Source: a virus. Taken from it: 64,000 bases of DNA. Below the pieces are notes generated by a model, which made no database searches, was not told the origin of the DNA, and saw only the letters and a program-made list of their open reading frames with translations. The stretch spans positions 177-64,176 of the IMG/VR virus record IMGVR_UViG_3300031146_000002. One strand, 5' to 3'. How positions within the stretch are numbered: position 1 is the first letter of the stretch; the number at the start of each line of letters is the position of its first letter. Shown piece by piece: positions 21,929 through 60,665 of the stretch. Made by a program: the position numbers and the translations under genes.

Positions 21929-23410
21929 CTACTGTCCACGGGCGAGGGTAGCCAGGATGCCGAGGGTGAACTGGCGCAAACCAGGGCCGGCGTCGTACTC
22001 CGGCACCACGCGGAAGAGCTCCTCGATGCCAGCCGAGAACACCTCCCAGTGCAGGCTCGCGGGATCGTCCGGCTCCGGCAGCCCGTCCTCAATGTCCTCG
22101 TACGTCTTGCCCACGTAAGGATCGATCCAGTCGTCCGGGTAGACCCACTCGCCTCGCGCGTAGTGGCTGCCACCCGGCAGATCCTGCCGGTCGCGCGCCA
22201 GCTCGAGGTTGCCGTCGGGTCCGGTTGCACGGCGGCGTAGGTAGCTGAACTCGAGCTCCTTTAGCCCCGGGACCATCTGCTCCATCCGATGCGCGAGCTC
22301 GTGCACCATCGTCTCGAGCGCGTAGTCGCCGAAGCCGTCGGACGGCACCTGGTCAGCCTCGGTTGGCAACACACCAAGCAGCTTTCTGTCCGGATAGTAG
22401 GAGCCTCGAGCGTCGCCGGTCACGTAGAGCTCGTCCTGCGCGGACAGTCGCAACCAGTCGCTCGGGAAGAACTTCTCCGCGGCCTTCAGTCGCTCCCTCC
22501 AGTCGGAGCGCAGCGGCACAGGGCTGCGCCCGTACCACTCGGTGACGTACGTGTGCGAAACGCCGCCCATCTCGCGGAGCTGAGAGAGCAGCGCGAACAG
22601 GATCTGCTGCCGGCGTTGGGCCAGTTGAGCCCGGGCCGGAGTGCGCTTCGGAAGACCTCTGACGCCCTCCTCAGTCACCACGATGGGACCGGTCACCGGG
22701 GCCAGATCCTCCGGGGTAAGCAGAGCCTCAAGTCGCTGGATCTCCGGGTCTGCCCGGTAGGCGGCCTGCAACGCCTCGTCCAGTGCCGCGCCAGCGTCCA
22801 GCACGGCGTCGAGGTAGCGGTGGTACGCCTCCGGCGGCATCTGCACGCCGTTGGCGTCTTCCTCGTATCGAGGCCAGAGTTCCTCGGGCATGTCCGGGTC
22901 CAGGTCGGGGTTGCGGGTTCGGGCCTCTCGTTCGACCCGGCGGAGAGCGGCCTCGAGGTTTGCAAGCTCTCGCCGTTCCCTGGTGAGCACGTAGTCGTTG
23001 GCTACACGCATGTCGATCTCGTCGGCAGACAGGCCGTACTCCCGAAGCTGTTCCGTCAGCTCCTGTTCCCGCTGAGCAATCCGTCTGCGGGTGTCCTCCA
23101 TCTGCGCCCGGACCTTCGCGACGCGACGCTCGCTCTCTTTCTGGGCTGGAAAGTAGTGGCCCCGGGCAGACATCCAGTCAGCACGACTGGCCGGAAGGAC
23201 GGCACGGGCCGCCTCGATGCGAGCCCGTTGGGCTCTGGTCAGCCGTGGGCCGCTCGACTGCCGCCGGGTCGTTGCCCGGCTGGGCGCGCGGCCGGTGGCC
23301 GGGCTTGCCGCCCCCAGCTTCCGGATGAACCGGCCACGCCAGTCTCGTGGATGCAGTTCTTCTCGCCACACGCGAGCCTTGGTCCAGGCTGGGAAAAGCA
23401 GAACGCCCAC
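21929..23410 (-). CDS. Tagged effector: HExxH zinc metallopeptidase-like protein
   Basis: Leader MGVLLFPAWTK-ARVWREELHPRDWRGRF; TMVHELAHRME and downstream WEVFS. Confidence 0.75.
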   Translation of the reverse strand: MGVLLFPAWTKARVWREELHPRDWRGRFIRKLGAASPATGRAPSRATTRRQSSGPRLTRAQRARIEAARAVLPASRADWMSARGHYFPAQKESERRVAKVRAQMEDTRRRIAQREQELTEQLREYGLSADEIDMRVANDYVLTRERRELANLEAALRRVEREARTRNPDLDPDMPEELWPRYEEDANGVQMPPEAYHRYLDAVLDAGAALDEALQAAYRADPEIQRLEALLTPEDLAPVTGPIVVTEEGVRGLPKRTPARAQLAQRRQQILFALLSQLREMGGVSHTYVTEWYGRSPVPLRSDWRERLKAAEKFFPSDWLRLSAQDELYVTGDARGSYYPDRKLLGVLPTEADQVPSDGFGDYALETMVHELAHRMEQMVPGLKELEFSYLRRRATGPDGNLELARDRQDLPGGSHYARGEWVYPDDWIDPYVGKTYEDIEDGLPEPDDPASLHWEVFSAGIEELFRVVPEYDAGPGLRQFTLGILATLARGQ

Positions 23411-23435
23411 ACCGACCTCCTCCGGTTCGGAGAGG

Positions 23436-23463
23436 ACGGTATGGGCGTTGGAGGCCTTGCGTA
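23436..23463 (-). promoter_or_regulatory. Putative late promoter
   Basis: TACGCAAG-N14-TACCGT, then GGAGG RBS. Confidence 0.6.
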
Positions 23464-23742
23464 CTAGTGGATGGCGCCGGGGTTAGCTGTGACTCTTGGG
23501 AGATCCGGTGGGGTGCCGGTCACGGTCACAGGGCCCGGGATGATGCGGAGTGCCTGCAGGTACAGCCACGCCTCGTCACGGGGTCCGGTGGGCATGTAGA
23601 GCGGCCCCGTCGGTGTCATCGGCACTGGCCGGCCCGCCTGCTCCACGCACTCTTGGTGCGTGATCCGGTCTGCGGTCCAGGTCCCCTTGTCGTCAACTTG
23701 GAGAAACCGGCCGTCAGGCCCCGCTACCTTCCACTTCGGCAC
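23464..23742 (-). CDS. Hypothetical protein, tandem paralog 2
   Basis: AGRPVPMTPTGP.Y.PT.P.DE..LYL.AL..IPGP shared with 23761-24039. Confidence 0.75.
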   Translation of the reverse strand: MPKWKVAGPDGRFLQVDDKGTWTADRITHQECVEQAGRPVPMTPTGPLYMPTGPRDEAWLYLQALRIIPGPVTVTGTPPDLPRVTANPGAIH

Positions 23743-23760
23743 CCCATCAGCGTACGCCGA

Positions 23761-24039
23761 TTATGGCGTAGCGCCGGCCGGCACCTCGGTGTCGAGGTCG
23801 GGCACCTGGGGTGGTGTGCCCGTGATGGTGTGCGGGCCGGGGATCATGTGGAGCGCGAGCAGGTACAGCCCGACCTCATCGTCGGGGCTGGTCGGCTGGT
23901 AGGCGGGCCCGGTTGGCGTGACCGGCACAGGCCGGCCAGCGAACGGCAGCACGTCGATGGTCGTGGTGGGATCGGCCGAGACAGACTTGCCGTCGTGGGC
24001 CATCCACCGACCCTCGCTGCCCTCTACACGCCAAGCCAT
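23761..24039 (-). CDS. Hypothetical protein, tandem paralog 1
   Basis: Paralog of 23464-23742. Confidence 0.75.
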   Translation of the reverse strand: MAWRVEGSEGRWMAHDGKSVSADPTTTIDVLPFAGRPVPVTPTGPAYQPTSPDDEVGLYLLALHMIPGPHTITGTPPQVPDLDTEVPAGATP

Positions 24040-24054
24040 GGCTCACCCCCAATC

Positions 24055-24075
24055 GTGGGGGTCGACTGCCCCCAC
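24055..24075 (-). promoter_or_regulatory. Leader hairpin element, divergent copy (GTGGGGG-CAGTCGA-CCCCCAC)
   Basis: Same geometry; compensatory C/G swap; TACGAT -10-like hexamer 4 nt upstream. Confidence 0.5.
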
Positions 24076-28100: not shown

Positions 28101-29417
28101 CTACTCCTCCAGGCTGCCCTTCACGAACGCCTCGGGCCGGTCCACCGTCAGGCAGATCCGCTCGTAGGCGCGGACCGTCACGACGCGCCGCTCGAAGTTG
28201 TCCTGGTTCTCGGTCGAGAAGTCGACCTGGGCGCCCCGCCGCTCGAACAGCTGGGCCCCCATGCCGAAGGCGCCGACGAGGTAGGTGCCCTGGGCGATCG
28301 CCGTGGTCGGAATGACCCGAGTCCGCCACACCCGGAGGGTGGAGCCGTCCTGGATCGAGGTGACCAGCGTCAGCCGGCCCATGTCGTCCTTCTCGAGCTC
28401 CATCTCCTCCCAGTCGAGCGGGTTCACGACCACGCCCGTGGCCTGGTACTCGGCCAGCTGGACGCGGGTGAGAGCCCGCCGGATGGTGGAGGTCATCGGG
28501 TCACCGGGGCGGCTGGCCCGGTTGAAGGTCTGCACCCCCGGCGTCTGGAAGATGCCGCGGATGTTGGGGTCCTGGCCGTCGCCGTGCAGGATGTCGTAGT
28601 CCTCGGCGAGGCGGAGGCCCTCGCGCATCTTGCCGTCGATCACGTTCCGCAGCCGGGGCTCGTCCTCGAGCACCGTCTGGTGGATGTAGTCGATGTGCCG
28701 AATCTCCGAGATCGGGTACGACACGTTCTCGAAGGTGATCTTGGAGCGCGGCGCCTTCCCGAACGTGTCGGTGTCGCCACCGGTCGGCGCGCTCTCCCCG
28801 TCGGCCGCGGTGCGCTCACGCACACCCCGGGCCGCGTTGACGAAGCCCGTCTGCCGGATGCCCCAGATCACCGCCGCCGTCGTCTGCTCCGGCGGGAACA
28901 GCTCCCGCAGGTGGTACGACCGGTCCGGCTGGACGACGATCGGCCGCTGCATGTCGCTGCCGAACGCCTGCCGGGTCAGCGTGCCGGCCGCCAGGCTCCA
29001 GACGTCCTTGGCCTCCATGCCGGCGGTGCTGTCCCACCACGAGGCGTCCTTGATCTCGATCGAGACCGAGTGACGCGACCGGTCGGCGCGCCACGCCTTC
29101 CACGCCTCGCTCTCGATGACGGCCTGGCCGATCGACTTGACCGACGGCCCGGCGGGCATGTACGGGTTGGCGTCCACCCCGCTGCCCTCGGGGGCGTCCA
29201 GGTAGGACTTGACGCGGTTGCCGGTCTCGATGGCCTTGCACGCCGCCTCGATCTGCTGGATCTCGTCCAGCAGCGCCTTCATGGCCTCGGACTGGCCCTG
29301 CGGCAGGACAACGGTGTCGCCCTTGACCTGGATCTGCTGGGTGATGCTGTCCAGCTCGGCTTGCTTCTGGTCAAGGACCTTGCGCAGGTCCTTGAGCGTG
29401 TCGGTTGCGGTAGGCAC
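28101..29417 (-). CDS. Major capsid protein, HK97 fold
   Basis: Coiled-coil delta domain; AEDYDILHGDG, VVVNPLDW, NFERRVVTVRAYER; GAGGAG RBS before GTG. Confidence 0.93.
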   Translation of the reverse strand: MPTATDTLKDLRKVLDQKQAELDSITQQIQVKGDTVVLPQGQSEAMKALLDEIQQIEAACKAIETGNRVKSYLDAPEGSGVDANPYMPAGPSVKSIGQAVIESEAWKAWRADRSRHSVSIEIKDASWWDSTAGMEAKDVWSLAAGTLTRQAFGSDMQRPIVVQPDRSYHLRELFPPEQTTAAVIWGIRQTGFVNAARGVRERTAADGESAPTGGDTDTFGKAPRSKITFENVSYPISEIRHIDYIHQTVLEDEPRLRNVIDGKMREGLRLAEDYDILHGDGQDPNIRGIFQTPGVQTFNRASRPGDPMTSTIRRALTRVQLAEYQATGVVVNPLDWEEMELEKDDMGRLTLVTSIQDGSTLRVWRTRVIPTTAIAQGTYLVGAFGMGAQLFERRGAQVDFSTENQDNFERRVVTVRAYERICLTVDRPEAFVKGSLEE

Positions 29418-29563
29418 GGTGGTGCTCCTCAGCTCCTCATGCGAACACAGACCCGAATGGATGGGTCGATGACGAGTGGGATGTGCCTGGGTTGCTGTTC
29501 GCCGCGCCGCCTGGCCAACACCGGGACGCCCTCGCAGCATCCGCAGCCCGAGGCTGATGCGGC

Positions 29564-29602: not shown

Positions 29603-31459
29603 TCAGGCGATCGGGGCTCGCCCGACAGACGCGAGGAGCTGGTTGAGCTCGTCGACGGACATGGTTTCGACCTGGCCACCGTCCTTGGTGGACAGGTCCC
29701 CGGTGCCGTCGCCGTCCACAACCTCGACGTCCTTCTCGGACAGCATGTCGAGGACGTTCTTCACCTCGCCCTCGATGCCGGAAGGCACCGGCACACCGGC
29801 ACTCGCCGCGAGGACCACCGAGTCCACGATCTCGTTGAGCGCGGAGCGGAGCGCCGCCTTGTCGACCGCGCTGGTGTCCGGCTGCTCGTAGCTCTTGCCC
29901 TCGGTGTCGGTCTCGTCGTTGAGGTCCGTGTTCGGCCGGATGACGGTCGCGCTGATCTCCACCGGAACCGGGGTACCGAGCCGAACCTCGGGGACCCCGC
30001 TGCTGGAGTCAATGGTGTACTCGACCTCGTAGGTCTCGGTCACCGACGGTCCGCGGTCCGGGGAGATGTGCACGCAGAAGACCGCCCGGTCGGGGTAGGT
30101 GCCGATGATCCGCACCCACCAGTGCGGCCTCTCCTCGCTGTCCTCGTCGTCCTCGTCGTACTCGTCGAGCAGGTCGGCGAGGATGTCGTCCCGGACGAGC
30201 TCCTCCACCGCGTGCTCGACCCGCTCGCGGGTCTCCTCGTACGAGCCCGCGAGGACCTCCATGAGCTTGACCTCGACCCCATCCAGTCCGTCGGCCACGA
30301 TCGGGGTCGCGCCTGCGAGCAGGATCTGGTCGTCGGTGGACAGGGCCTTGCCCTGGGCCTGGGTGCGCTTGCGGTGCTCGGCGTTCCACTGCCGGCGCCG
30401 CTCCCGCTCCGCGGCCATCACCTTGTCGAACGCCTCCTGCCACTGGCGGCGCCGTTCGCGCTCCTCCTGCTGCAGCCGCTTCTTCTCGTCGCCCTCGGCC
30501 GCGTCGATGCGGCGCTCGGCATCGAGCCGGCGCTGCTTCTCGGCCAGCCGCTCCTTGTCCATGGCCGAATCGAAGGCGTCCCGCCGGTCCATCTCCTCGT
30601 TCCGGGACGCGATCGCCGCCTCGTCCCGGCGGCTTCGGCTGCTGCCGCCACCGCCGCGGCCCTCCACGAAGCGGGTGTCGCCGGCGAGCACACGGGACAG
30701 CCAGTTCTGCGGCAACGCGAATCCGCCACCGCGGCGGGACCGGTCGTCATCGTCGTCATCATCGTCGTCGTCGGCCCACTGGCCACCGTCCGGCCGTCCG
30801 GCGGGGACGCGCGGCTGGTTGGGGTCGTACTTCACCTCGGTCGGGTCGGTGACGAAGCCGGTGGGCGTGGGCTCGGCGGGTTCGTCCTTGGTCTCCATGG
30901 TGGCCGTGTCGTCCGGTCCGGCGTCCTTGGCTGCGAGGGTCATGGTCAGCGGAGCGGCACCGTGGGCGACGTCAGACCACTCCCACAGGTCGATGTCACG
31001 CAGCTCGCGAACGCCGTCCTTCCGCCGGACGGCACCGTTGGGACCGTGCGGGTTGTAGCCGATCGACCACTGGCCCTCGGCACCGAAGAACTTGGCGTCC
31101 TCGAAGGCGTCGCGGCCGTCCTTCGTGTTGAGGTTGTACTGGGCCTTGACGTAGAGGGCCCCGGCCTCCTTCGGCCACGGGGTCACGCCGTCGGCCAACG
31201 TCTTGGGCAGCCGCGGGTCGCCAGGCATCCACTCCTCGATCACCAACGCCTTGGCGACCTTGCGGGTCTTGTCGTGGTAGCGCAGCCCGATGGGCTTGAG
31301 CTGCTTGAGGGTGCGCTGGTACGCGCCGGGGATGATGATGTCCTTCTGCCGGTCAACGACCCCGGTGATGGAGACGAGCGCCTCGACGATGCCCTGCTCC
31401 TCGTCGACGCCGAGCACGGTGCTCGTACCGGGGTCAGCCTGCTTGTACTCGATTCCCAC
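29603..31459 (-). CDS. Prohead protease (HK97 family) with long C-terminal extension containing the effector tag
   Basis: GIVEALVSITGVVDRQKDII.PGAY, GLRYHD, WSIGY, LWEWSDV..GA; then EVKYDPNQPRVPAGRPDGGQW. Confidence 0.9.
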   Translation of the reverse strand: MGIEYKQADPGTSTVLGVDEEQGIVEALVSITGVVDRQKDIIIPGAYQRTLKQLKPIGLRYHDKTRKVAKALVIEEWMPGDPRLPKTLADGVTPWPKEAGALYVKAQYNLNTKDGRDAFEDAKFFGAEGQWSIGYNPHGPNGAVRRKDGVRELRDIDLWEWSDVAHGAAPLTMTLAAKDAGPDDTATMETKDEPAEPTPTGFVTDPTEVKYDPNQPRVPAGRPDGGQWADDDDDDDDDDRSRRGGGFALPQNWLSRVLAGDTRFVEGRGGGGSSRSRRDEAAIASRNEEMDRRDAFDSAMDKERLAEKQRRLDAERRIDAAEGDEKKRLQQEERERRRQWQEAFDKVMAAERERRRQWNAEHRKRTQAQGKALSTDDQILLAGATPIVADGLDGVEVKLMEVLAGSYEETRERVEHAVEELVRDDILADLLDEYDEDDEDSEERPHWWVRIIGTYPDRAVFCVHISPDRGPSVTETYEVEYTIDSSSGVPEVRLGTPVPVEISATVIRPNTDLNDETDTEGKSYEQPDTSAVDKAALRSALNEIVDSVVLAASAGVPVPSGIEGEVKNVLDMLSEKDVEVVDGDGTGDLSTKDGGQVETMSVDELNQLLASVGRAPIA

Positions 31460-31492: not shown

Positions 31493-31520
31493 ATCGTGAC
31501 CCCGGCCGTCGGCTTACGTC
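31493..31520 (-). promoter_or_regulatory. Putative late promoter (protease)
   Basis: GACGTAAG-N14-CACGAT. Confidence 0.65.
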
Positions 31521-46842: not shown

Positions 46843-47068
46843 CCTCGGTCTCCGACTCCTCGCCGTCGGCCGGATCGTCGTCGTCGAGCGTCAGCTGGTC
46901 GGCGTTGCCGGCCGTCCAGCCCGCCACCCAGGCCCGGCGCATCGCAGCCTCCCAGGGCCCGCCGTCCGTCCGGAAGCGACAGTCGGTGAAGTCACGGCCC
47001 TCCTGCGCTGCCAGCAGACCCATGACCGTGGCCTGTCGCAGCTCATCCCTGGTCGGATGCCGGCTCAT
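46835..47068 (-). CDS. Rmf/CrpP-fold-like small protein
   Basis: G..AAQEG...DC.F......RRAWVAGW resembles the RMF motif; ATGA-coupled to 47065-47865. Confidence 0.55.
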   Translation of the reverse strand: MSRHPTRDELRQATVMGLLAAQEGRDFTDCRFRTDGGPWEAAMRRAWVAGWTAGNADQLTLDDDDPADGEESETEGR

Positions 47069-53493: not shown

Positions 53494-54693
53494 TCAGGGG
53501 TCAGTCCGATTCGTAGCCCGTCCGTCGCCGGTAAGGCGCTTGGAAGTCACGCCGTCCGGGCGGCGCCGATAGCCCATGCGCTCCCAGAAGCCACGCGACG
53601 AGTCGAGAAGGGTGATCTCCTCGACGCCCTCGTCCCGGAGTACGACTTCCAGCCGCTCGACCCACCGCCGCGCGATGCCGCGGCCACGGAACTGGTCGCG
53701 GACGGAGATGCCGTCGACCTCGGCGCGCAGCTCCTCGCCGTTGGTCTTGAGCTGGATGCTCCATGACCCGGCCCACTGCTCGTCGATGTAGAAGTCGCCG
53801 GTGATGCCGCCGATGCGGAAGCTGCCGGTGCCGCTGACGTAGGTGCTGCGGATCTCCGACCGCTCCCCCGCCGGGTCGCTGTACTGCAGATGGTCGGTCG
53901 CCCACTGCCGCAGCCCTGGGCTTTCCGCGCCGAACGACTCCGGAGCGGACGACAAGGTGTCCAGCAGCGCTCGGCGCGGCTGCTCCCCGCCCGATTCTTC
54001 GCCTCGCTCGGGGGCCGTGTCGTCCTGAGCGCCGCCAGGGTTGCGCCGCCGCTCGAACCACTCACGTACGGCCCGGCGGGAGTAGACCGCCCGCCCGTTG
54101 CGGTAGTCGATGGGCTTCGGGAAGTCCGGGTGCCGGGCCGCCCAGTTGGACACGGCGGATGGCCTGACGCCGAGCTCGCGGGCGATGTCGGCGGCGTACA
54201 CCTCGTCGTCCGGGTCCCGGCCCTCCGTGGGAGGGTTGACCTCCGCCGGCCTGGACTGGCCCGGGCGGAGCAGCCCGAGCTGCTCGCGCCGTTCCCGCCG
54301 CTCACGCTTCTCCCGCTCGGCTTGGGCCTGGCGCTCACGCGCCTCGCGTTGCGCCTGCTGCCGCCGATCGAGCCACGCGAGGACCTCAGAGCGGCGGTAC
54401 ATGACGGATGCGGATGGGCTGTCGATCCGCTTGGGGAAGTCCGGGTGCCGGGCCGCCCAGTTGGTGATGGCCGCGCGGGTGACGCCCAGCTCACGGGCCA
54501 GCTGGGCAGATGTAGCGATGTCAGGGTCGTTGATGGCTCCCGCCGACTGTGATCGGCGCCGACCACGGCCGCCCCTGCCGTGCTCCGGTGCCCACCGCCC
54601 ACCGACGGAGATCCCGCCGATGATCGTGCCGGCGGCCCAACGCAGCTGGTCCGGGCGAAACCGTTTGACCTCGAATCGGGGCACGAGCAGCAC
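53494..54693 (-). CDS. Tagged effector: two wHTH domains plus GNAT acetyltransferase
   Basis: MLLVPRFEVK-RFRPDQLRW...GGRW; ARELGV...NWAARHPDFPK twice; VRDQFRGRGIA...FWERMGY. Confidence 0.82.
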   Translation of the reverse strand: MLLVPRFEVKRFRPDQLRWAAGTIIGGISVGGRWAPEHGRGGRGRRRSQSAGAINDPDIATSAQLARELGVTRAAITNWAARHPDFPKRIDSPSASVMYRRSEVLAWLDRRQQAQREARERQAQAEREKRERRERREQLGLLRPGQSRPAEVNPPTEGRDPDDEVYAADIARELGVRPSAVSNWAARHPDFPKPIDYRNGRAVYSRRAVREWFERRRNPGGAQDDTAPERGEESGGEQPRRALLDTLSSAPESFGAESPGLRQWATDHLQYSDPAGERSEIRSTYVSGTGSFRIGGITGDFYIDEQWAGSWSIQLKTNGEELRAEVDGISVRDQFRGRGIARRWVERLEVVLRDEGVEEITLLDSSRGFWERMGYRRRPDGVTSKRLTGDGRATNRTDP

Positions 54694-54738: not shown

Positions 54739-55566
54739 CTACGCGAGCACCGTCGGCTTCTCGAGCACGACGACGGTGCCGTCGGGCAGCTGCCAGCGGT
54801 ATCCGGGGCGGATCACCTGGGCGGTACGGCCGCGGGCGATCGATCCGATCGGGGTGTGCTCGCTCGGGTCGAACATGACCCGCTCGCCGGGCTGGGCGAT
54901 GGGCTCGAATCCGGCCTGGGACATGAGCCGACGAACCTCGGCGACGATCGAGTCCCGGGGCTCGCCGGCGCTGACCATCGCCTCCACCTGGGTGGCGATC
55001 GCGGCGAGCGTGCCCGCAGCGACCTGCTCGATCTCGGTGCGGGTGTTGACGTCGTGCACCCGCCCGACCGTCGGCGTGATCGGCAGGTCCTGGTCGGGCT
55101 GCCGCCACGTGTAGGAGACCGCGCTGCCGGTGCCGGTTGGCTCGAGGCGCAGCCGGCGCATGTGGGACCGGACCCGGTGCAGCACCGCTCGGTCCGAGGC
55201 GCCCTTGGCGATGTCCTCCTCGACCTGGGAGGCCAGGCCAACGACCTCGCGGGCGGTGTCGGTGCGGACCTGCTCGAGCGCCGACGACGGGCCGGTCGTG
55301 CCGAGAGCTTCGCGGCCGGCGTCGGTGAGCTCCCACCCACCGTCCGGCCTCTGCCTGATGAGCCCGCGGCGGCTCAGGGCCCGGATCGTTGCTGGCCGGC
55401 CACCGCTGCCGCCGGAGGCGAGCGACCGGAGCGCCCTCGTCTGGGGCAGCGACAGCCGTGGGCCCCCGATCCTCACCCAGCGGCCAGCGCCGGGCATGCC
55501 GCGTGGGATGCGCGGCTGGTCGGGCCGGTACTTGACCTCGAGGCCGGGGAAGAGCAGCACGGGCAC
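54739..55566 (-). CDS. Tagged protein: wHTH plus GrpE-like C-terminal domain
   Basis: MPVLLFPGLEVK-YRPDQPRIPRG..GAGRW; RALSRRGLI...WELTDAG; GERVMFDPSEH...VIRPGY. Confidence 0.75.
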   Translation of the reverse strand: MPVLLFPGLEVKYRPDQPRIPRGMPGAGRWVRIGGPRLSLPQTRALRSLASGGSGGRPATIRALSRRGLIRQRPDGGWELTDAGREALGTTGPSSALEQVRTDTAREVVGLASQVEEDIAKGASDRAVLHRVRSHMRRLRLEPTGTGSAVSYTWRQPDQDLPITPTVGRVHDVNTRTEIEQVAAGTLAAIATQVEAMVSAGEPRDSIVAEVRRLMSQAGFEPIAQPGERVMFDPSEHTPIGSIARGRTAQVIRPGYRWQLPDGTVVVLEKPTVLA

Positions 55567-55892: not shown

Positions 55893-57719
55893 TTACAGGT
55901 ACAGGACGCCGCGCCAGCTCGAGCCCAGCATCAGCCACTTGCCTGGCCAGATCGCGTTCCGACCGCCTTGGCCTTCCTGGCGGCCGAATCGGGCGATCTC
56001 CGGGGCGCTTGCCGGGCGTCGACCGGCGAGCATGTCGTCAATGTAGTCGAGCAGCTCGTCCATCTGCTGACGAGTCAGCCCCGCCGGGGGTGCGTTCCGT
56101 GCGGCCTCGACCCTGGTGCGTGCCCATCTGAGGAACGAATCAGCGGCGGCCTCGTTCTCGAACTCGAATCCCTGGGTGGCCCATGTGTAGCCGCCCACGT
56201 CGATGTTGGCGTGGAGGCGGACCCTGGTAACACCCGAGCGCCGGTACCAGTCGAAGAGGTTTGCCATGAGGCCGTGGGCGAACCCCGTCCCCCGCACGTT
56301 CGGCTCGAGGCGCAGGTAGGAGTGGTAGGCAACGAGTTCGCCGGTGAACGGATCGCGGTCGATCCGCGCTTCGGCGTGGCCGACCCGCCGACCAGTGGCG
56401 TCGTAGACGCTCGCGTCGAATGAAAGCCCGCTGGCCCGGCCGTCACTGCCACGCGCCACGGTGGCGCGGTCGACCTCCAGCCGCAGATCGCCGTACGTTC
56501 CCTCGACACCCATGCGGATGCCCTGCACGGCCTGCTCTTCCTGGGTCGACGCGGTAGCGATGAGCTCATTCAGCGGCCGGGTCCTACGGTTGAGGAGCAT
56601 GGACGGGTCCGGTGCTGCGACCGTGGGAGCGGCCGGCTCCCGGACCGTGACCCTCGACGTTCTAAGCCGTGGTGTCGGCGTCGGTGGGGTTTGCCGCGCC
56701 CGCCGGCGGGCCTGTTCCTCGGCGAACAACGCCAGGGCATCCATTGCGGCCTGGCGTGTGCGGAACGGTCCGCCAGGCACCCGGATGCCGGGCTCACCCG
56801 CAGGTGGAAGGGCGTACGCCTCCCATCCCGTCGAGCCTCGCTGACGCACCACCTGGCCCACGTACTCCCCGCCGCCGGATCTAGCGCTCGGGCCGGCGTA
56901 GACGTCGTACACGCCGGCCATGGCGGGAGCGCGGACTGCCCTGGTAGCCGGCGGCGTCCTTGTGCTCGGTGCGGATTCACCGGCTGCTGCGTCCATTAGC
57001 AGCCGGATCGCGCTGTCGCGGTCGTCGACAGCAGCTGCGGCACCCGGGGAACGCACGATCCGGCCATCCGGGGCAAGCGCAAGCCACCGCCCGGCCGGGG
57101 TGTCAACGACGATGCCCAGGTTGCGTTCGCCCTGCGTGACCCGGAACGCGGACCGCTCAGGAGCGGGCCAGGACCACGGGGTGAGCGTCACCTCCGGCAC
57201 GGACGTCGCCGCCTGGCGGGCCGCGCGGTCCTGCATCCGCTGGTGGTGGGCCAGCACCGTTTGAACCGCGGAGGCTTTCAGCCTGTTCGGGCCGTTGACC
57301 TGCAGCCACTGCCCGTCGGCGTCCTCAACGGACCACCCGAAGCTCCAGCGGTGGATGGCTCCCACCCTGGTGGAGCCCACGTAGATGTCGTGACTCTCCC
57401 TGGCAGGCCCCCATTGGTTCCGCGCCGGGGTCTCCCGACGAACCCCGTACACACCGGTCATGCCACCGGTGAGGTTCCGCGGCAGGGTTACCGCGCCTTC
57501 CGGAAGGCCTGCTGGGCGGGTACGTCTCGTTGACCGTGGCGCCGACCGTCGCGTGGTCGTCCGAGCCGCGCTGCTGGACCGCCGCGGCCTGGCCGATGAG
57601 CCGCCGAGGATGGCCGCCCAGCGGCCGCCGACGGCGATGCCGCCGATGATGGTGCCGGCGGGGTGGCGCGGCTGGTTGGGGTTGAAGCGTTTGACGGTGT
57701 ACCGCGGCGTCAGGAGCAC
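55893..57719 (-). CDS. Tagged effector with C-terminal GNAT-like domain
   Basis: MLLTPRYTVK-RFNPNQPRHP...GGRW; LEPNVRGTGFA...ANIDVGGYTWATQGF. Confidence 0.8.
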   Translation of the reverse strand: MLLTPRYTVKRFNPNQPRHPAGTIIGGIAVGGRWAAILGGSSARPRRSSSAARTTTRRSAPRSTRRTRPAGLPEGAVTLPRNLTGGMTGVYGVRRETPARNQWGPARESHDIYVGSTRVGAIHRWSFGWSVEDADGQWLQVNGPNRLKASAVQTVLAHHQRMQDRAARQAATSVPEVTLTPWSWPAPERSAFRVTQGERNLGIVVDTPAGRWLALAPDGRIVRSPGAAAAVDDRDSAIRLLMDAAAGESAPSTRTPPATRAVRAPAMAGVYDVYAGPSARSGGGEYVGQVVRQRGSTGWEAYALPPAGEPGIRVPGGPFRTRQAAMDALALFAEEQARRRARQTPPTPTPRLRTSRVTVREPAAPTVAAPDPSMLLNRRTRPLNELIATASTQEEQAVQGIRMGVEGTYGDLRLEVDRATVARGSDGRASGLSFDASVYDATGRRVGHAEARIDRDPFTGELVAYHSYLRLEPNVRGTGFAHGLMANLFDWYRRSGVTRVRLHANIDVGGYTWATQGFEFENEAAADSFLRWARTRVEAARNAPPAGLTRQQMDELLDYIDDMLAGRRPASAPEIARFGRQEGQGGRNAIWPGKWLMLGSSWRGVLYL

Positions 57720-57757: not shown

Positions 57758-58864
57758 TCAGCGGCCCCGTCTGCGGCTGCGCTGCGCGGCCGCCAGCGAC
57801 CCGTCGAACATCCAGTCGTAGTCCGGGACCTTCGGCTTACGACGGTCGTCGGCCGCCTTGGTTTCGACCAGCTGGCCCGTGTCGGGGTCATACACGCCGA
57901 CCTGCTCGAGCTCGATCAGGTAGCGGTCGCCATCCTCCGCTGAGGTCTTCTCGACGCGCACAATGCGGAACCTACCCCCGGTGACGTACTCCCGCGGGTC
58001 GTAGCGCTCCATGAACTGGGTGTATTCGCCGGCCGGGAGGTCATCGGGCGCGTCCAGTTGCCCACCCCGGACCGCCTTGGCGTCCCGGACCACGAACGTC
58101 ACGTCGGTTCCGTATCGGGCAACAACGTCCGCACGGGTGCCGAACGACGCGAGCGGCAGGTCGATGAAGGCGCCTTCCTTGAAGACAGCCGGCAGACCCA
58201 TGCCCATCAGGTCGACCCCGCGGTACAGCTCGGGCACACGAGGCGCGTCGCGAACGCCGCTCATCAGCACGTAGGCCTGCATGCGTCGAAGCTCTGGGAC
58301 GTTTAGGTTCCGCGTCACGCTGAAGCCGACGCGAGCCCCCGGGGCCTCGTCGTGGGAGACGTGTACATCCGCCTCGCGCCCTTCTGTGTCGAAACCGGCG
58401 AGCTCGAAGGCAGCGCGGCGGATCTCCCGTGCTGGAATCCAGTAGTCCCAGTCGCCACCCGACGCCATCAGCCGGGCTAGCACCTGCGGCGTGACCTCAC
58501 CGTCGTCCAGGCCGACCTCATCGAGCAGGCGGAGCTTCACGCCGGTCGTGTCACCGATCCGAACCCTGATCCGCTCGAGCTCAATCTGGCTCTCGCCGGC
58601 CTGACGCCGCCGGTGGTAGTCCCGCACCTGCTCGAGCAGCTCCTGGGCCCTCTCCCGGGCCCGGGAGCGAACGAGCGCCAGCGGATCGGGCGCGGCCGGC
58701 GCCGACGCTGCAGACCCTCCCGGCCAACGCCGCGAACGAAGGGCGCGGCCCAGGACCCGAGCCCAGCGGCCGCCGACGGCGATGCCTCCGATGATCGTGC
58801 CGGCGGGGTGGCGCGGCTGGTTCGGGTTGAAGCGCTTGACGGTGTACCGCGGCGTCAGGAGCAC
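57758..58864 (-). CDS. Tagged effector: ADP-ribosyltransferase (VIP2/exoenzyme, R-S-E type)
   Basis: LYRG, LASFGT, PREYVTGGRFRIV. Confidence 0.8.
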   Translation of the reverse strand: MLLTPRYTVKRFNPNQPRHPAGTIIGGIAVGGRWARVLGRALRSRRWPGGSAASAPAAPDPLALVRSRARERAQELLEQVRDYHRRRQAGESQIELERIRVRIGDTTGVKLRLLDEVGLDDGEVTPQVLARLMASGGDWDYWIPAREIRRAAFELAGFDTEGREADVHVSHDEAPGARVGFSVTRNLNVPELRRMQAYVLMSGVRDAPRVPELYRGVDLMGMGLPAVFKEGAFIDLPLASFGTRADVVARYGTDVTFVVRDAKAVRGGQLDAPDDLPAGEYTQFMERYDPREYVTGGRFRIVRVEKTSAEDGDRYLIELEQVGVYDPDTGQLVETKAADDRRKPKVPDYDWMFDGSLAAAQRSRRRGR

Positions 58865-58875
58865 GGCCGGATGAT
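58761..58875. repeat. 115-bp direct repeat, copy 2
   Basis: Matches 57616-57730. Confidence 0.9.
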
Positions 58876-58939: not shown

Positions 58940-58945
58940 GGGGCG

Positions 58946-59347
58946 TCAGGCGGCCTTCCGCTCGGCGATCTCGTCCGTCTGGGAGATGTCGAACACGTAG
59001 GCCACCCGGTAGCGCATGCGCCCTTCCTCGACGACGTTCCCCTCATCGTCGGTGACGGGCTCCGTCTGACCGGCGGGGGCGAAGATCAGGATGCCCTGCT
59101 CACCCTTGCGGACCTGCCGACCCCGCTTCTGCCAGGCCTTGTACCCGTCGACGTCGGTGGCGGTCGGCATCTGCATCGCGATCAGCAGAGCGTTCCGCAT
59201 CGAGTAGCCGTCGAACCGGGCGGTGATGACCGCGATCTCGGCCTCGCTCAGCTCCGCCTCGTACTGCTCGAGCCTTGCCTTGAGGTCGGCGATCTGCTGG
59301 CGCCGGGCGGCGATGTCGGCTGCGGTCTTGCGGCGACGGTAGCTCAT
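58946..59347 (-). CDS. Stand-alone ArdC-like N-terminal ssDNA-binding domain protein
   Basis: YSMRNALLI, GYKAWQKRGRQVRKGE.GI.I, VFDISQT. Confidence 0.88.
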   Translation of the reverse strand: MSYRRRKTAADIAARRQQIADLKARLEQYEAELSEAEIAVITARFDGYSMRNALLIAMQMPTATDVDGYKAWQKRGRQVRKGEQGILIFAPAGQTEPVTDDEGNVVEEGRMRYRVAYVFDISQTDEIAERKAA

Positions 59348-59365
59348 CGTGGCGATCTCCCTCCT

Positions 59366-59386
59366 GTGCGGGTCGCTCACCCGCAC
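59366..59386 (-). promoter_or_regulatory. Leader hairpin element with TATCAT six nt upstream
   Basis: GGTATCAT-N6-GTGCGGG-TGAGCGA-CCCGCAC. Confidence 0.75.
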
Positions 59387-59427
59387 ACACATATGATACC
59401 ACGATGATCGTCAGTGGCGCAAGATCA

Positions 59428-59781
59428 CTAGCCGGCGTAGTAGGCGTTCGGCTGGCCCGCCCTGGCCGGGTCCTCCTCACGGCCGCTCCGCTTCGCGGGC
59501 TTCTTCGCCGGTGCCTTCGCCCCGGAGCTCGTGTCCGCGGTACGGCCTTCGTCGGCCGGCTGATTCCTGGGCTCCTCGCCGGCGTTCTGCTGCGCTGGCT
59601 GGCCACCTCGAGGTCGGGTCCGCGGCTTCGGGTTGCGGATCCAGTCGGGTAGGTCGTCGACGGTCTCGGCCTCGTCCGCGGCCCGGAGGAGCTCGTCGAA
59701 CTCGGGGTCGCCGGGCAGCAGCTGCATGACGTTGACGGCGCGGGCGCACGCTCGGCTGATCTCGGGGTCATCCTCAGCCAC
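59428..59781 (-). CDS. Small protein downstream of ART-like effector
   Basis: GGAGG RBS; acidic N-terminal half, low-complexity tail. Confidence 0.65.
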   Translation of the reverse strand: MAEDDPEISRACARAVNVMQLLPGDPEFDELLRAADEAETVDDLPDWIRNPKPRTRPRGGQPAQQNAGEEPRNQPADEGRTADTSSGAKAPAKKPAKRSGREEDPARAGQPNAYYAG

Positions 59782-59840
59782 GGCTGGCCTCCTTCACGCT
59801 TGTCGATCGGTCTGGCATCGTAACCAACGCCGTACCGCCG

Positions 59841-60665
59841 TTAGGCCTTCTCAACGATCACCGCGGTCCGGTTGAAGATCACGATGTAGTCGCGGCCCTC
59901 GACGTGCATCGCGTCGTAGCCGAGCCGCGCAGCCAGCGCCCCGGGGTCGATGAACACCCCCGTCTGCTCGTACTCCTCCCGAGCCAGCCGGGCCATCTCC
60001 AGCCCCGATGCGATCACAGCGTCGCGGTGCAGGACCATGCGGATCATCACCCCGCCCATGTCGGGCTGGGCCCACGCACTGACCTTCTCCCGGTTCATGC
60101 CGGTGTAGATGCCGTTGCCGTGGGTGCCCTCGCCGTAGTAGGCCGGGCCAGTGCGGAACTGCTCGGCCTGCTGCAGAGAGATCTTCCGCTTCTCCCGGCG
60201 GGATAGGGTCTGCCCATCCCGGCCGCGCTGGTGGATACCGCGCCACAGCTCGATGCCGCCGGCCTCGATCTCCGCATCCAGGTCTGCTGCCGTGCCCACC
60301 CGCGGCGGGCCGTCGAAACCCTGCAGGTGCGCGTACGCAGCCACCAGCCTGGAGTTGGGCGTCGAGTGCTCCTTGACCGCCTCGAGGGCCTCGGTGATGT
60401 CCACGTCCCGGCCAAGGTCTCGGCCACGAACCATGATGTGAGTCGTCACCCTAGGCTGCTGCTGGCCCGACGGCCTGCCAGGCTGCTGCTGTCCTGGGAC
60501 CGGCCCAGGGCCTGACGGGCTCGCCGATCGTCGGCCACGGCCGCCACTGCTCCGCGGGGCATCGGGGACGTCGATGAACCGTCCGTCGGGCCCGCGGGGG
60601 TGCAGCAGGGCGTTCCACGGCCGGCGGATCTTCACCTCGTATCGGGGCACCAGGATCGCCGGCAT
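59841..60665 (-). CDS. Tagged effector with probable ART-fold domain
   Basis: MPAILVPRYEVK...WNALLHPRGPDGRF; ELWRG, YYGEGTHGNGIY, LGYDAM, YIVIFNR. Confidence 0.65.
   Translation of the reverse strand: MPAILVPRYEVKIRRPWNALLHPRGPDGRFIDVPDAPRSSGGRGRRSASPSGPGPVPGQQQPGRPSGQQQPRVTTHIMVRGRDLGRDVDITEALEAVKEHSTPNSRLVAAYAHLQGFDGPPRVGTAADLDAEIEAGGIELWRGIHQRGRDGQTLSRREKRKISLQQAEQFRTGPAYYGEGTHGNGIYTGMNREKVSAWAQPDMGGVMIRMVLHRDAVIASGLEMARLAREEYEQTGVFIDPGALAARLGYDAMHVEGRDYIVIFNRTAVIVEKA

What the first reader, a model, noticed from the sequence alone, without database searches (positions are those of the whole stretch)
21929..60665. Eleven diverse effector proteins share one N-terminal tag: candidate modular capsid-packaged effector system
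SEEN: eleven proteins with unrelated bodies begin with the same two-part tag, a hydrophobic leader ending x[VTA]K followed by an aromatic..PR/R..G[R]F/W motif. They are: 59841 MPAILVPRYEVK..WNALLHPRGPDGRF (ART-like); 57758 and 55893 MLLTPRYTVK-RFNPNQPRHPAG..GGRW (ART; GNAT); 54739 MPVLLFPGLEVK-YRPDQPRIPRG..GRW (wHTH + GrpE-like); 53494 MLLVPRFEVK-RFRPDQLRW..GGRW (wHTH x2 + GNAT); 51085 MPVLLTPRFEAK-RFNPLQPRW..GGRW (kinase + wHTH x2); 47065 MALLLVAAWFAK-AWDPSKHPRGPDGRF; 44467 MAQLLVPAWSTK..WNPDLHPRDHRGRF (zincin); 42489 MPVLYAPLWYTK-ARVWDESRVFRDALGRF (GrpE-like); 39836 MLLAARYYTK-ARIWDESRVVRDWRGRF (peptidase + GNAT); 21929 MGVLLFPAWTK-ARVWREELHPRDWRGRF (peptidase). Domains recur in different combinations, so they are being shuffled behind the tag. 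KNOWN: T4 loads internal proteins through a short N-terminal capsid-targeting sequence removed by the prohead protease. ART, GNAT, kinase, zincin and ArdC-N domains are typical of phage polyvalent proteins and MuF-linked toxins. INFERENCE: the tag is a packaging/ejection address, and the phage injects a cocktail of separately encoded host-modifying or anti-defence enzymes. HPR..GRF-like motifs may already be noted in other phages; I cannot check whether the system as a whole has been described.
Basis: partly seen in the sequence, partly recalled or inferred. Interest (0 to 1): 0.95.

Follow-up and report, generated by a model that had tools for sequence, protein, structure and literature searches.

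The report
Shared header tag on phage cargo proteins
A 64-kb temperate actinomycete phage encodes eleven different enzymes and DNA-binding proteins that all start with the same short peptide header, which also sits inside its capsid-maturation protease and recurs between modules of giant phage proteins elsewhere, so it is probably the label that loads and processes proteins carried in the virus head and injected with the DNA.

Summary
**Observation: confirmed.** Eleven minus-strand genes begin with a two-part header: a hydrophobic leader ending in Lys, then [WFY]..P..[HQ]PR...G[RQ][FW]. Two further copies are internal, one in the prohead protease and one at the module junction of a fused protein, giving 13 in all.

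**The core motif is not unique to this phage.**
- A profile of it finds 836 cluster representatives among 1.84 billion proteins.
- Most are giant phage proteins with up to 18 copies at domain-sized intervals.
- These proteins carry ART, GNAT, Zeta-toxin and similar modules, and some are fused to MuF, portal or S78 prohead-protease domains.
- Bodies of the window's tagged proteins are homologous to modules inside such giants, so this phage carries an "unbundled" polyvalent protein.

**Relatives.** Syntenic Micromonospora prophages keep the same header on different cargo, and keep the protease-embedded copy.

**Best reading (about 0.55).** The Lys is a cleavage site for the HK97-type protease. 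The motif plus the basic, apparently disordered linker is a handle for capsid-internal cargo. No direct evidence of packaging exists; the one complex prediction gave no verdict.

**Prior description.** I found none in papers, Pfam, NCBIfam or the PDB. This scan has met the motif before on other DNA (e1-3441897, e1-3878168, e1-5346072).

**Verdict.** A new variant of a known kind (head-packaged polyvalent or MuF-linked effectors).

The parts
59841..60665 (-). g60, tagged cargo gene (274 aa), ART-PolyVal-like body; tag at nt 60576-60665
   Evidence: Tag. External HMM E = 1.5e-6. Body is 37% identical to an internal module of the 3,149-aa P0023. Atlas look-alikes are ART-PolyVal clusters at 0.92, lead level. 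No Pfam hit.
57758..58864 (-). g58, tagged cargo gene (368 aa), ADPrib_exo_Tox-like body; QPR..GGRW-type tag at nt 58763-58864
   Evidence: Atlas look-alikes are ADPrib_exo_Tox clusters at 0.94. Body is homologous to a module of P0009. No Pfam hit.
55893..57719 (-). g57, tagged cargo gene (608 aa) with C-terminal GNAT; tag at nt 57618-57719; first 35 aa identical to g58
   Evidence: Pfam Acetyltransf_1 E = 1.3e-5. C-terminal module is homologous to g42 and to modules of P0080, P0041 and P0032.
54739..55566 (-). g55, tagged cargo gene (275 aa); tag at nt 55477-55566; C-terminal domain shared with g43
   Evidence: No Pfam hit. 'GrpE-like' was tested only on its g43 relative and remains a weak lead. 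The wHTH label found no support.
53494..54693 (-). g54, tagged cargo gene (399 aa): two HTH_17/MerR-type HTH modules plus GNAT; tag at nt 54592-54693
   Evidence: Pfam HTH_17 3e-10 and Acetyltransf_1 7e-9. PHROG excisionase/HTH families.
51085..52506 (-). g52, tagged cargo gene (473 aa): PI3/4-kinase-like region (sub-threshold) plus two MerR-type HTH modules; tag at nt 52405-52506
   Evidence: Pfam MerR_1 3.8e-9. PI3_PI4_kinase E = 0.0055, below cut-off. HTH modules are homologous to g54.
47065..47865 (-). g47, tagged cargo gene (266 aa), body of unknown function; tag at nt 47785-47865
   Evidence: Best external-HMM hit, E = 6e-10. No family hit.
44467..46806 (-). g46, tagged cargo gene (779 aa): Lys/Ala/Pro-rich basic region, SAP-like motif, C-terminal HExxH (HEWGH) module; tag at nt 46684-46806 with an Arg/Pro-rich insert between leader and motif
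   Evidence: C-terminus is homologous to the C-terminus of P0147. External HMM E = 1.5e-7.
42489..43145 (-). g43, tagged cargo gene (218 aa); degenerate tag (H-P replaced by V-F) at nt 43059-43145; C-terminal domain shared with g55
   Evidence: E = 0.08. The same protein is on record on 12 contigs in other assemblies.
39836..42436 (-). g42, tagged two-module cargo gene (866 aa): g23-like HExxH peptidase module, internal tag, then g57-like GNAT module; N-terminal tag at nt 42356-42436
   Evidence: 32% identity over 461 aa to g23 and 30% over 278 aa to g57.
40796..40885 (-). Internal tag of g42 (aa 518-547) at the junction of its two modules
   Evidence: a leader-like stretch ending in T-K, then W..QPR...GRW.
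21929..23410 (-). g23, tagged cargo gene (493 aa) with HExxH peptidase-like module, located between head and tail genes; tag at nt 23327-23410; ordinary GGAGGAGG ribosome-binding site
   Evidence: External HMM E = 2e-8. Module is homologous to P0081.
29603..31459 (-). Prohead protease (618 aa): S78 catalytic domain (aa 1-166, His62/Ser132), linker with embedded tag, poly-Asp, charged coiled-coil-like region, C-terminal domain; net charge -48
   Evidence: Pfam S78 at threshold; homologues carry PF04586. Alignment and model. Charge.
30776..30862 (-). Tag copy embedded in the protease (aa 200-228): ..T-E-V-K then Y-D-P-N-Q-P-R....G-G-Q-W, followed by ten Asp
   Evidence: Conserved at the same place in two Micromonospora prophage proteases. 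Region predicted disordered.
31514..33877 (-). Portal-MuF fusion protein (787 aa)
   Evidence: Pfam Phage_portal 5e-32 and Phage_Mu_F 1e-6. 38% identical to the Gilgamesh portal-MuF fusion.
28101..29540 (-). HK97-fold major capsid protein with N-terminal delta-like region (438 aa from the start used elsewhere); candidate maturation site after Lys187 of the long ORF (..E-A-K / D-V-W-S)
   Evidence: Pfam Phage_capsid 8e-30. 140 homologues; the K-D-V context is nearly invariant. Spacing matches the HK97 gp5 K103/S104 site.
37026..38783 (-). Large terminase, directly downstream of the tagged-gene block on the same strand
   Evidence: PHROG 2, E = 1.4e-19.

Best explanation
The eleven genes are the separately encoded modules of what other phages make as one giant 'polyvalent' protein, meaning enzymes and DNA-binding proteins carried inside the capsid and delivered with the DNA. 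Each begins with a bipartite header.

**Part 1: the leader.** A 10-12-residue hydrophobic leader ends in [VTA]-K. It supplies the P-side of a cleavage site for the HK97-type (S78) prohead protease, which cuts after Lys.

**Part 2: the motif.** A short linear motif, [WFY]-x-[PE]-x-x-[HQ]-P-R-x(3-13)-G-[RQ]-[FW], is followed by a basic linker rich in disorder-promoting residues. It stays on the mature module as a flexible N-terminal handle. It docks the cargo to a procapsid-internal partner (capsid inner surface, acidic protease-scaffold, or portal-MuF) and/or to DNA.

**The protease copy.** The protease carries the same unit right after its catalytic domain. There it would serve both as its self-release site and as its anchor.

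**Shown:**
- the tag copies and their positions;
- peptide-level conservation;
- the wide distribution of the motif as module punctuation;
- motif-bearing polypeptides that also carry protease, MuF or portal domains;
- conservation of the whole arrangement in relatives with different cargo.

**Inferred:** cleavage at Lys, physical packaging, the binding partner, and ejection.
For: 1. **Protease-embedded copy.** It is conserved in the window and in two Micromonospora prophages at the same position. It lies in a disordered linker just after the confidently modelled catalytic domain. By my recollection of Duda et al. 2013, not checked here, this is where HK97 gp4 carries its capsid-targeting tail.
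2. **Module punctuation elsewhere.** 836 representatives carry the motif. Giants have up to 18 copies spaced 150-500 aa apart, with the first copy often within 60 aa of the N-terminus.
3. **Body homology.** The bodies of g60, g58, g57, g42, g46 and g23 are homologous to internal modules of such giants. g42 keeps an internal tag at its module junction.
4. **Head-assembly domains in the same polypeptide.**
   - S78 protease at the N-terminus of four giants.
   - Peptidase_S78_2, Phage_Mu_F and Portal_Mu in the census.
   - MuF directly upstream of the motif in L005 and L011.
5. **Head-gene neighbourhoods.** TerL, portal and MuF lie nearby. Gilgamesh gp48 follows portal-MuF, and Sixama gp73 follows the portal.
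6. **Lys before the motif.**
   - 13 of 13 in the window (12 within 6 aa of the aromatic; g46's leader Lys lies 15 aa upstream, with a second Lys 2 aa upstream).
   - 6 of 6 in relatives.
   - 14 of 14 within 6 aa in S78-fused giants, and 197 of 400 in other hits, against 30% expected.
   - HK97 gp5 reads K/S at its maturation site.
   - The MCP family keeps a nearly invariant K-D-V.
   - S78 homologues keep [VA]-K at the end of the catalytic domain.
7. **Charge.** The segment after each tag is among the most basic in the proteome and rich in disorder-promoting residues. The protease-scaffold is strongly acidic, with poly-Asp after its own tag.
8. **Peptide-level selection.** Synonymous codons differ at conserved residues.
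9. **Gene arrangement.** The tagged genes lie on the late strand directly upstream of terL, here and in the relative. They share a GGGAC(G)GTAR-type upstream element with the protease and tail genes.
10. **Transcription.** In four metatranscriptomes, whole RNA contigs fall on small untagged patches, not on head-gene or tagged-gene bodies.
Against: - There are no virion proteomics, N-terminal data or structures for any tagged protein.
- The only binding test (tag versus capsid protein) returned no verdict.
- In the protease model the tag does not dock anywhere.
- The motif is conserved from actinomycete phages to proteobacterial phages and a haloarchaeal virus, whose capsid proteins and proteases are very divergent. 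This argues for a more universal partner, such as DNA, or for an intrinsic role.
- In hits outside the S78 lineage only about half of the copies have a nearby Lys, so Lys cleavage cannot be the general rule.
- Three tagged proteins are HTH DNA-binding proteins that could equally act as ordinary regulators.
- RNA evidence comes from contigs only, so strand and level are unknown.
Confidence: 0.55

Rival explanations
1. Processing punctuation only. The unit is a recognition and cleavage signal for the maturation protease, or for the HExxH peptidase modules the cargo set itself carries. It separates modules, while packaging is decided by something else such as fusion to MuF, portal or protease, or bulk entrapment. 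In this phage the N-terminal copies would be relics of former polyprotein junctions.
For: - The motif lies at module junctions in giants and in g42.
- Lys is enriched upstream.
- It sits where a protease-scaffold release site would be expected, by analogy with the release site of herpesvirus assemblin precursors (my own knowledge).
- HExxH modules occur in g23, g42 and g46, and Iyer et al. 2017 predicted zincin-mediated processing of polyvalent proteins.
Against: - Eleven separately translated proteins, and four more in a relative, keep a conserved leader plus motif under peptide-level selection although nothing needs separating.
- The first copy in giants also lies near the N-terminus.
- A Gly-rich or basic flexible linker follows the motif rather than preceding it, as for a tethered handle.
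Confidence: 0.2
2. Post-assembly handle. The motif acts inside the filled head or during and after ejection. It might bind DNA so the modules leave with the genome, lead the unfolded module through the portal and tail channel, or engage a conserved host factor. It would not address cargo to the procapsid.
For: - Conservation across very different phages and an archaeal virus suggests a universal partner such as DNA.
- The motif is rich in Arg and aromatic residues and is followed by strongly basic linkers.
- Under the cleavage model the motif stays on the mature module.
Against: - It does not explain the copy inside the protease, which is normally degraded or lost from the head.
- It does not explain the conserved leader.
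- No known DNA-binding family matches.
Confidence: 0.12
3. Host export or toxin-delivery signal. The tagged proteins would be prophage-encoded polymorphic toxins exported by the lysogen through a host pathway, with the header acting as the trafficking domain.
For: - ART, GNAT and Zeta-toxin bodies are typical toxin domains.
- Small homologous ORFs follow the two GNAT genes, like immunity genes, and lie at RNA-covered patches.
Against: - The leader is too short for a Sec or Tat signal and has no similarity to known trafficking domains.
- The motif is mostly internal in giant proteins and occurs in the same polypeptides as head-assembly domains.
- The bodies of the tagged genes show no whole RNA contigs where the small ORFs do.
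Confidence: 0.04
4. DNA-level cassette boundary. The shared 5' end (upstream element, hairpin, leader codons) would be kept alike by recombination or gene conversion that swaps cassettes, with no function for the peptide.
For: - g58 and g57 have nearly identical 5' ends.
- Upstream elements and hairpins are shared.
Against: - 49 of 116 identical-residue codon pairs differ synonymously.
- The same peptide motif is conserved in contigs of 45-73% GC and in unrelated proteins.
Confidence: 0.02

Closest known systems
Phage polyvalent proteins (Iyer, Burroughs, Anand, de Souza, Aravind 2017, PMC5512222)
   Same: - The domain repertoire matches: ART, GNAT, zincin-like HExxH peptidase, HTH.
- They are encoded beside portal, terminase and MuF genes and were predicted to be head-packaged and injected.
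- The window's modules are homologous to modules inside giant ART-PolyVal-containing proteins.
   Different: - Here the modules are eleven separate genes of 218-866 aa rather than one polypeptide.
- A term search of that paper and two follow-ups found no mention of the HPR motif or of a peptide-motif/cleavage-site description.
- They reported assemblin-like peptidases at the C-termini of polyvalent proteins. Here and in four giants the S78 domain is N-terminal.
MuF polymorphic toxins of temperate phages (Jamet et al. 2017, PMC5576092)
   Same: - Temperate phage, with variable toxin-like C-terminal domains linked to head morphogenesis genes.
- In some viral contigs the motif lies directly after a MuF domain.
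- Possible immunity-like small ORFs are present.
   Different: - The tagged proteins have no MuF domain. MuF is fused to the portal.
- The defining N-terminal element here is a peptide of about 30 residues, which the paper does not describe.
T4 capsid-targeting sequence of internal proteins, and the N-terminal targeting of P1 Dar proteins (own knowledge; reviewed in PMC3012670, PMC9026906, PMC9024508, seen only in search results)
   Same: A short N-terminal peptide shared by unrelated proteins directs them into the prohead. In T4 the prohead protease removes it, and the cargo is basic and leaves with the DNA.
   Different: - No sequence similarity. The T4 signal ends in L-x-E and is cut by an S77-type protease.
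- Here a second, much more widely conserved motif follows the putative cleavage site and would stay on the cargo.
- The same unit is also used internally in giant proteins.
C-terminal capsid-targeting tail of the HK97 prohead protease gp4 (Duda, Oh, Hendrix 2013; own knowledge, not checked here)
   Same: Both are S78 proteases. A short flexible segment directly after the catalytic domain is what brings the protease, and foreign fusions, into the prohead. The embedded tag occupies that position.
   Different: - The HK97 gp4 tail has no HPR/GRF-like sequence.
- In HK97 the signal is not shared with a family of cargo proteins.
Encapsulin cargo-loading peptides (own knowledge)
   Same: An HK97-fold shell, and diverse cargo enzymes that share one short conserved peptide tethered by a flexible linker.
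   Different: The consensus is different, the peptide is usually C-terminal, and there is no protease step and no DNA. This is an analogy only. Binding to the capsid protein was not supported or refuted here.

Membership tests
Polyvalent proteins (Iyer et al. 2017) | One polypeptide combining 2 to 15 effector or other domains | tested here: not met
   Most tagged proteins have one module. g42, g54 and g52 have two or three. The set as a whole matches, but it is split into 11 genes.
Polyvalent proteins (Iyer et al. 2017) | Domain repertoire of ART, GNAT, zincin-like peptidase and nucleic-acid-binding domains | tested here: met
   GNAT and HTH by Pfam. HExxH motifs. ART only by Atlas look-alikes. 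Modules are homologous to parts of giant ART-PolyVal proteins.
Polyvalent proteins (Iyer et al. 2017) | Phage type: encoded with the portal-terminase head genes | tested here: met
   The block lies directly upstream of terL, portal-MuF, protease and MCP on the same strand. The relative has the same arrangement.
MuF polymorphic toxins (Jamet et al. 2017) | N-terminal MuF (PF04233) domain in the toxin polypeptide | tested here: not met
   No MuF hit in any tagged protein. MuF is at the C-terminus of the portal protein.
MuF polymorphic toxins (Jamet et al. 2017) | Cognate immunity gene immediately downstream | tested here: inconclusive
   Weakly homologous small ORFs follow g57 and g42 (31% over 71 aa). 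The one after g42 coincides with an RNA patch in four metatranscriptomes. No function is shown.
T4-type capsid-targeting sequence | N-terminal peptide sufficient for encapsidation and removed by the prohead protease | not testable with these tools
   Only indirect evidence: a conserved Lys before the motif, and HK97-type cleavage after Lys.
T4-type capsid-targeting sequence | Sequence likeness to the T4 signal (ends in L/I-x-E) | tested here: not met
   The leaders end in [VTA]-K. The comparison with T4 rests on my own knowledge of its consensus.
S78 (HK97 gp4-type) prohead protease, for the protein carrying the embedded tag | S78 fold with catalytic His and Ser | tested here: met
   Pfam PF04586 at 22.1 bits against a cut-off of 21. 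BLASTP to HK97 gp4 gives E = 2e-7. His62 and Ser132 are invariant in 8 homologues. Domain model pLDDT is about 90.
HK97 gp4 capsid-targeting tail | Sequence similarity of the post-catalytic tail | tested here: not met
   The gp4 C-terminus read from NC_002167 has no such motif. The likeness is positional only.
Encapsulin cargo-loading peptide | Peptide binds the inner face of the HK97-fold shell protein | tested here: inconclusive
   The complex prediction of tag with MCP scored 0.00, a 'no answer' verdict that counts neither for nor against.

The most novel reading that the evidence does not exclude
The [WF]-D/N-E/P-x-x-H-P-R-x3-G-R-F peptide is a general, portable cargo header for tailed-phage capsids, used from actinomycete phages to proteobacterial phages and haloarchaeal viruses. 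It would be the phage counterpart of the encapsulin cargo-loading peptide, combined with a protease site. If so, a simple motif search would list the 'injectome' of thousands of phages, and any protein could be loaded into such capsids by adding about 30 residues.
Probability: 0.3. Interest if true: 0.9.

Novelty: new variant of a known kind. Interest (0 to 1): 0.72.

Why it matters
How phages choose which proteins travel inside the capsid is known for only a few models (T4, P1, P22, HK97 protease). How the giant polyvalent proteins are loaded and cut up is unknown.

- **A candidate signal.** It is a short header found on at least 836 protein clusters. Here it appears in its cleanest form: eleven single-module genes, plus a copy in the maturation protease.
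- **Testable with cultured material.** Streptomyces phage Gilgamesh and Micromonospora lysogens both carry the header.
- **If confirmed.** It would allow prediction of injected anti-defence and host-takeover proteins directly from sequence. It would also give a handle for loading foreign proteins into phage heads.
- **An evolutionary point.** Polyvalent proteins and arrays of small tagged genes appear to be interconvertible forms of one system.

Tried and rejected
**Searches and predictions that gave nothing usable**
- Complex prediction of tag with full-length capsid protein: score 0.00, verdict 'no answer', not evidence either way.
- AlphaFold model of protease residues 1-245: the tag region is disordered and does not dock in cis.
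- Portal-based searches for close relatives in viral and genome contigs found none. Relatives came from the capsid protein instead.
- The genome search could not draw relatives for a virus record or read the prophage records.
- Short-peptide tblastn against cultured phages is insensitive: one query found nothing, two found only a few Gordonia, Streptomyces, Haloarcula and Rhizobium phages.
- The profile against PDB sequences returned only a chance antibody hit.

**Literature**
- Text searches for ways of writing the motif returned unrelated papers.
- The HHTV-1 proteomics paper is not in the library.

**Domain labels not supported by Pfam or PHROGs**
- ART for g60 and g58.
- wHTH and GrpE-like for g55.
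- GrpE-like for g43. The Atlas gives GrpE for g43 only at rank 58, score 0.86.
- A known peptidase family for g23 and g46.

**Other**
- The simple GAC..TAR regex is not enriched overall: 22 minus-strand hits against 29 expected from shuffles. Only its position before gene starts is notable.
- Laying DNA contigs of four other studies showed the same array at about 98-99% identity but no clear cassette gain or loss.
- Rejected: the idea that the shared 5' ends are a DNA-level recombination artefact.

Full report
**What the window is.**
- The window covers all but 188 bases of a single 64,188-bp virus contig. GC is about 69% and nearly all real genes are on the minus strand.
- Read in the direction of transcription it holds:
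  - a few small genes;
  - a 21-kb block of tagged genes (60.7 to 39.8 kb), interrupted by a tyrosine integrase, an anti-restriction-like gene and small ORFs;
  - large terminase, portal-MuF fusion, a 618-aa S78 prohead protease and an HK97-fold capsid protein;
  - head-tail genes with one more tagged gene among them, then tape measure and tail genes, and RecT.
- It is a temperate siphovirus-type phage.
- Its capsid protein is 49-56% identical to those of Micromonospora prophages, and less so to Nonomuraea, Planobispora and Streptosporangium prophages.
- The nearest cultured phage by portal protein is Streptomyces phage Gilgamesh, at 38%.
- The same DNA occurs in phyllosphere, soil and compost metagenomes from many studies.

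- All eleven proteins begin with a hydrophobic leader ending in [VTA]-K, followed by an aromatic residue, a [HQ]-P-R core and G-[RQ]-[FW].
- There are two forms:
  - six HPR...GRF copies, two of them degenerate;
  - five QPR...GGRW copies with an 8-13-residue insertion.
- In a six-frame scan the motif patterns hit these ORF starts and otherwise only scattered weak matches. None of those is a full leader-plus-motif copy.
- An HMM made only from copies in unrelated database proteins ranks the six HPR...GRF tags as its six best hits in the window, four of them between E = 6e-10 and 1.5e-6.
- The long-spacer form is linked to the family in two ways:
  - relatives carry the same leader with canonical spacing;
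  - QPR...GRW copies sit beside HPR...GRF copies in the same giant proteins.
- Two more copies are internal: protease residues 200-228, and g42 residues 518-547. Earlier first-reader notes e1-5360109 and e1-5360112 pointed to these, and I confirmed both.
- Conserved residues are often encoded by different synonymous codons (49 of 116 pairs), so selection acts on the peptide.

**The bodies.**
- Pfam supports GNAT in g57, g54 and, weakly, g42. It supports HTH modules in g54 and g52 and a SAP-like motif in g46.
- HExxH motifs are present in g23, g42 and g46.
- g52 has a sub-threshold PI3/4-kinase hit.
- g60 and g58 resemble ART-PolyVal and ADPrib_exo_Tox clusters only in the ESM Atlas.
- 'GrpE-like' for g43 is a weak lead. 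For g55 neither that label nor the wHTH label found support.
  - g42 is a g23-like module plus a g57-like module;
  - g55 and g43 share a C-terminal domain;
  - g52 and g54 share HTH modules.

**The motif is widespread and is module punctuation.**
- A profile of eight N-terminal tags was searched against 1.84 billion cluster representatives. It found 836 proteins at E <= 0.001 and 110 at E <= 1e-10.
- The best hits are proteins of 1-7 thousand residues with up to 18 copies spaced 150-500 residues apart. In 65 of the top 150, the first copy lies within 60 residues of the N-terminus.
- The consensus of 433 copies is [WF]-[DN]-E-x-x-H-P-R-[DG]-x-x-G-[RK]-[FW] followed by a Gly-rich stretch. The sequence upstream is not linker-like.
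- These proteins carry ART-PolyVal, ADPrib_exo_Tox, Zeta_toxin, GNAT, NUDIX and topoisomerase IB domains.
- Some carry head-assembly domains in the same chain: Peptidase_S78_2, Phage_Mu_F and Portal_Mu.
- Four giants begin with an S78 catalytic domain closely related to this phage's protease (E about 1e-64) and continue into motif-separated modules.
- Their genomic neighbourhoods are phage head regions.
- In IMG/VR contigs of 45-73% GC, the motif is N-terminal or follows a MuF domain.
- Gilgamesh gp48 (4,624 aa, right after portal-MuF) and Gordonia phage Sixama gp73 (right after the portal) start with the header.
- A haloarchaeal virus carries the motif in a 1,100-aa head-module protein.
- The bodies of six window proteins are homologous to internal modules of different giants.
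- The window's array is therefore best described as an unbundled polyvalent protein.

**Relatives keep the system with other cargo.**
- Two Micromonospora prophages are syntenic with the window from terL to the tape measure.
- In one of them, two ADPrib_exo_Tox proteins and a Zeta_toxin protein lie directly upstream of terL on the same strand. Each starts with leader plus motif.
- A GNAT-like gene between portal and protease does so too.
- Both relatives' proteases carry the embedded copy at the same place, preceded by Lys.
- The GGGAC(G)GTAR-type upstream element is also conserved.

**How it probably works.**
- *HK97 precedent.* HK97-type proteases cut after Lys. HK97 gp5 reads K/S at its known maturation site (the identity of the site is from my own knowledge).
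- *Capsid protein.* In this capsid family a K-D-V site at the matching distance from the fold is nearly invariant.
- *End of the catalytic domain.* All S78 homologues keep [VA]-K there.
- *Lys before the motif.*
  - all 13 copies in the window (12 within 6 residues of the aromatic; in g46 the leader Lys is 15 residues upstream and a second Lys 2 residues upstream);
  - all 6 in the relatives;
  - all 14 within 6 residues in the S78-fused giants;
  - 49% of the other copies, against 30% expected from composition.
- *Inferred cleavage.* I therefore infer cleavage after the leader Lys, which would leave the motif at the new N-terminus of each module.
- *Charge.* The motif is followed by one of the most basic stretches in the proteome (+4 to +11 over 60 residues in ten of the eleven), rich in disorder-promoting residues. 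The protease-scaffold protein has net charge -48, with ten Asp right after its own copy.
- *Protease model.* The catalytic domain is confident and the tag region is flexible. By my recollection, not checked here, that is the position of the HK97 gp4 capsid-targeting tail. The gp4 tail itself has no similar sequence.
- *Reading.* Together this fits a tethered N-terminal handle on capsid-internal cargo.
- *Unknown.* The partner has not been identified. The single complex prediction allowed (tag with capsid protein) gave no verdict.

**Expression.**
- The tagged genes share the strand and an upstream element with head and tail genes.
- Most have a small stem-loop ending 2-3 nt before the GTG, in place of a clear ribosome-binding site. 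Individually the z-scores are modest.
- In four metatranscriptomes, whole matching contigs recur at the same short patches: around 35.3-36.1, 38.2-38.8, 39.3-40.0, 43.2-44.5 and 46.65-47.0 kb.
- These patches are small untagged or opposite-strand ORFs. No whole contigs fall on the bodies of head genes or tagged genes.
- This is contig-level evidence without strand. It is what a lysogen that keeps late genes and tagged genes silent would show.

**Comparison with what is known, and novelty.**
- Head-packaged polyvalent proteins and MuF-linked toxins are described (PMC5512222, PMC5576092).
- Capsid-targeting peptides are known in T4, P1 and the HK97 protease.
- Term searches of those two papers and two follow-ups found no mention of this motif.
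- No Pfam or NCBIfam model covers it, and no solved structure contains it.
- This scan has met the motif before on other DNA (e1-3441897, e1-3878168, e1-5346072), with similar readings. I re-derived the distribution independently here.
- What this genome adds:
  - the fully unbundled form, with eleven single genes;
  - the lineage-specific leader ending in Lys;
  - the conserved copy inside the prohead protease;
  - the S78-fused giants.
- These tie the motif to procapsid assembly and to Lys-specific processing.
- I rate it a new variant of a known kind. It is of high interest to phage assembly and anti-defence research, with the function still inferred.

Noticed in passing
window 4252, 4827, 5569, 5604, 20180, 21936, 31520, 42470, 46842, 47900, 57753, 60700 (minus strand); also L021 upstream of its tagged genes: A GGGAC(G)GTA[AG]-type element lies 23-67 nt upstream of 12 gene starts, both tagged and virion genes (protease, tail genes). 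It is conserved in the Micromonospora prophage. The regex is not enriched overall; only its placement is notable. It may be a late promoter -10-like element.
   Followed up: partly
window 58865-58885, 57720-57742, 55567-55587, 47866-47886, 46807-46826, 43146-43172 (minus strand), and 23411-23443, 63290-63320: Short GC-rich stem-loops end 2-3 nt before the GTG of most tagged genes, where a Shine-Dalgarno would be. The stems differ in sequence but keep pairing, and individual z-scores are only -0.4 to -2.5. g23's leader buries its GGAGGAGG in a strong hairpin (z = -4.8), and the gene at 63287 has one at z = -6.1.
   Followed up: partly
window 35304-36108, 38188-38842, 39304-40040, 43197-43960, 44163-44520, 46652-46996: Four phyllosphere metatranscriptomes hold whole, perfectly matching contigs at the same short patches (small untagged ORFs, opposite-strand ORFs, the DUF6545 region). 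None falls on head-gene or tagged-gene bodies. These are possibly lysogen-expressed genes. Strand is unknown.
   Followed up: partly
window 55613-55861 and 39624-39893 (minus strand): The small ORFs that directly follow the two GNAT cargo genes g57 and g42 are weakly homologous (31% over 71 aa, E = 1e-5), like immunity partners. The second coincides with an RNA patch in all four metatranscriptomes.
   Followed up: partly
window 47992-49092 (minus strand): A tyrosine integrase (PHROG 1, E = 1e-41) sits in the middle of the tagged-gene block rather than at a genome end.
   Followed up: no
window 44467-46806, residues about 95-140 and 177-219 of g46: g46 has a Lys/Ala/Pro-rich, histone-H1-like basic repeat region and a SAP-like motif ahead of its HExxH module. 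This suggests DNA association.
   Followed up: no
window 27014-27985 (minus strand): A 323-aa protein with a Beta-lactamase2 (class A-like) domain (E = 6e-11) is encoded immediately after the capsid gene, an unusual neighbour for head genes.
   Followed up: no
whole genome: The g43 protein is on record on a 128,395-bp JGI contig, almost exactly twice the 64,188-bp genome. That is probably a concatemer or a circularly permuted assembly.
   Followed up: no
proteins P0138, P0036, P0123, P0049 (database hits): These giant proteins of about 2,000 aa begin with an S78 prohead-protease domain and continue into motif-separated modules, so cargo is fused directly to the maturation protease. The published polyvalent-protein survey placed assemblin-like peptidases at the C-terminus.
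   Followed up: partly
L016 8199-23286: A 65-kb contig carries four consecutive large ART-PolyVal proteins (1,695, 1,794, 1,290 and about 1,019 aa). At least the first two start with the motif, so this is an intermediate between one giant protein and many small tagged genes.
   Followed up: no
window 58946-59392 (minus strand): An untagged 148-aa protein matches a PHROG anti-restriction family (E = 4e-11) inside the tagged block. Not every putative counter-defence gene there carries the header.
   Followed up: no
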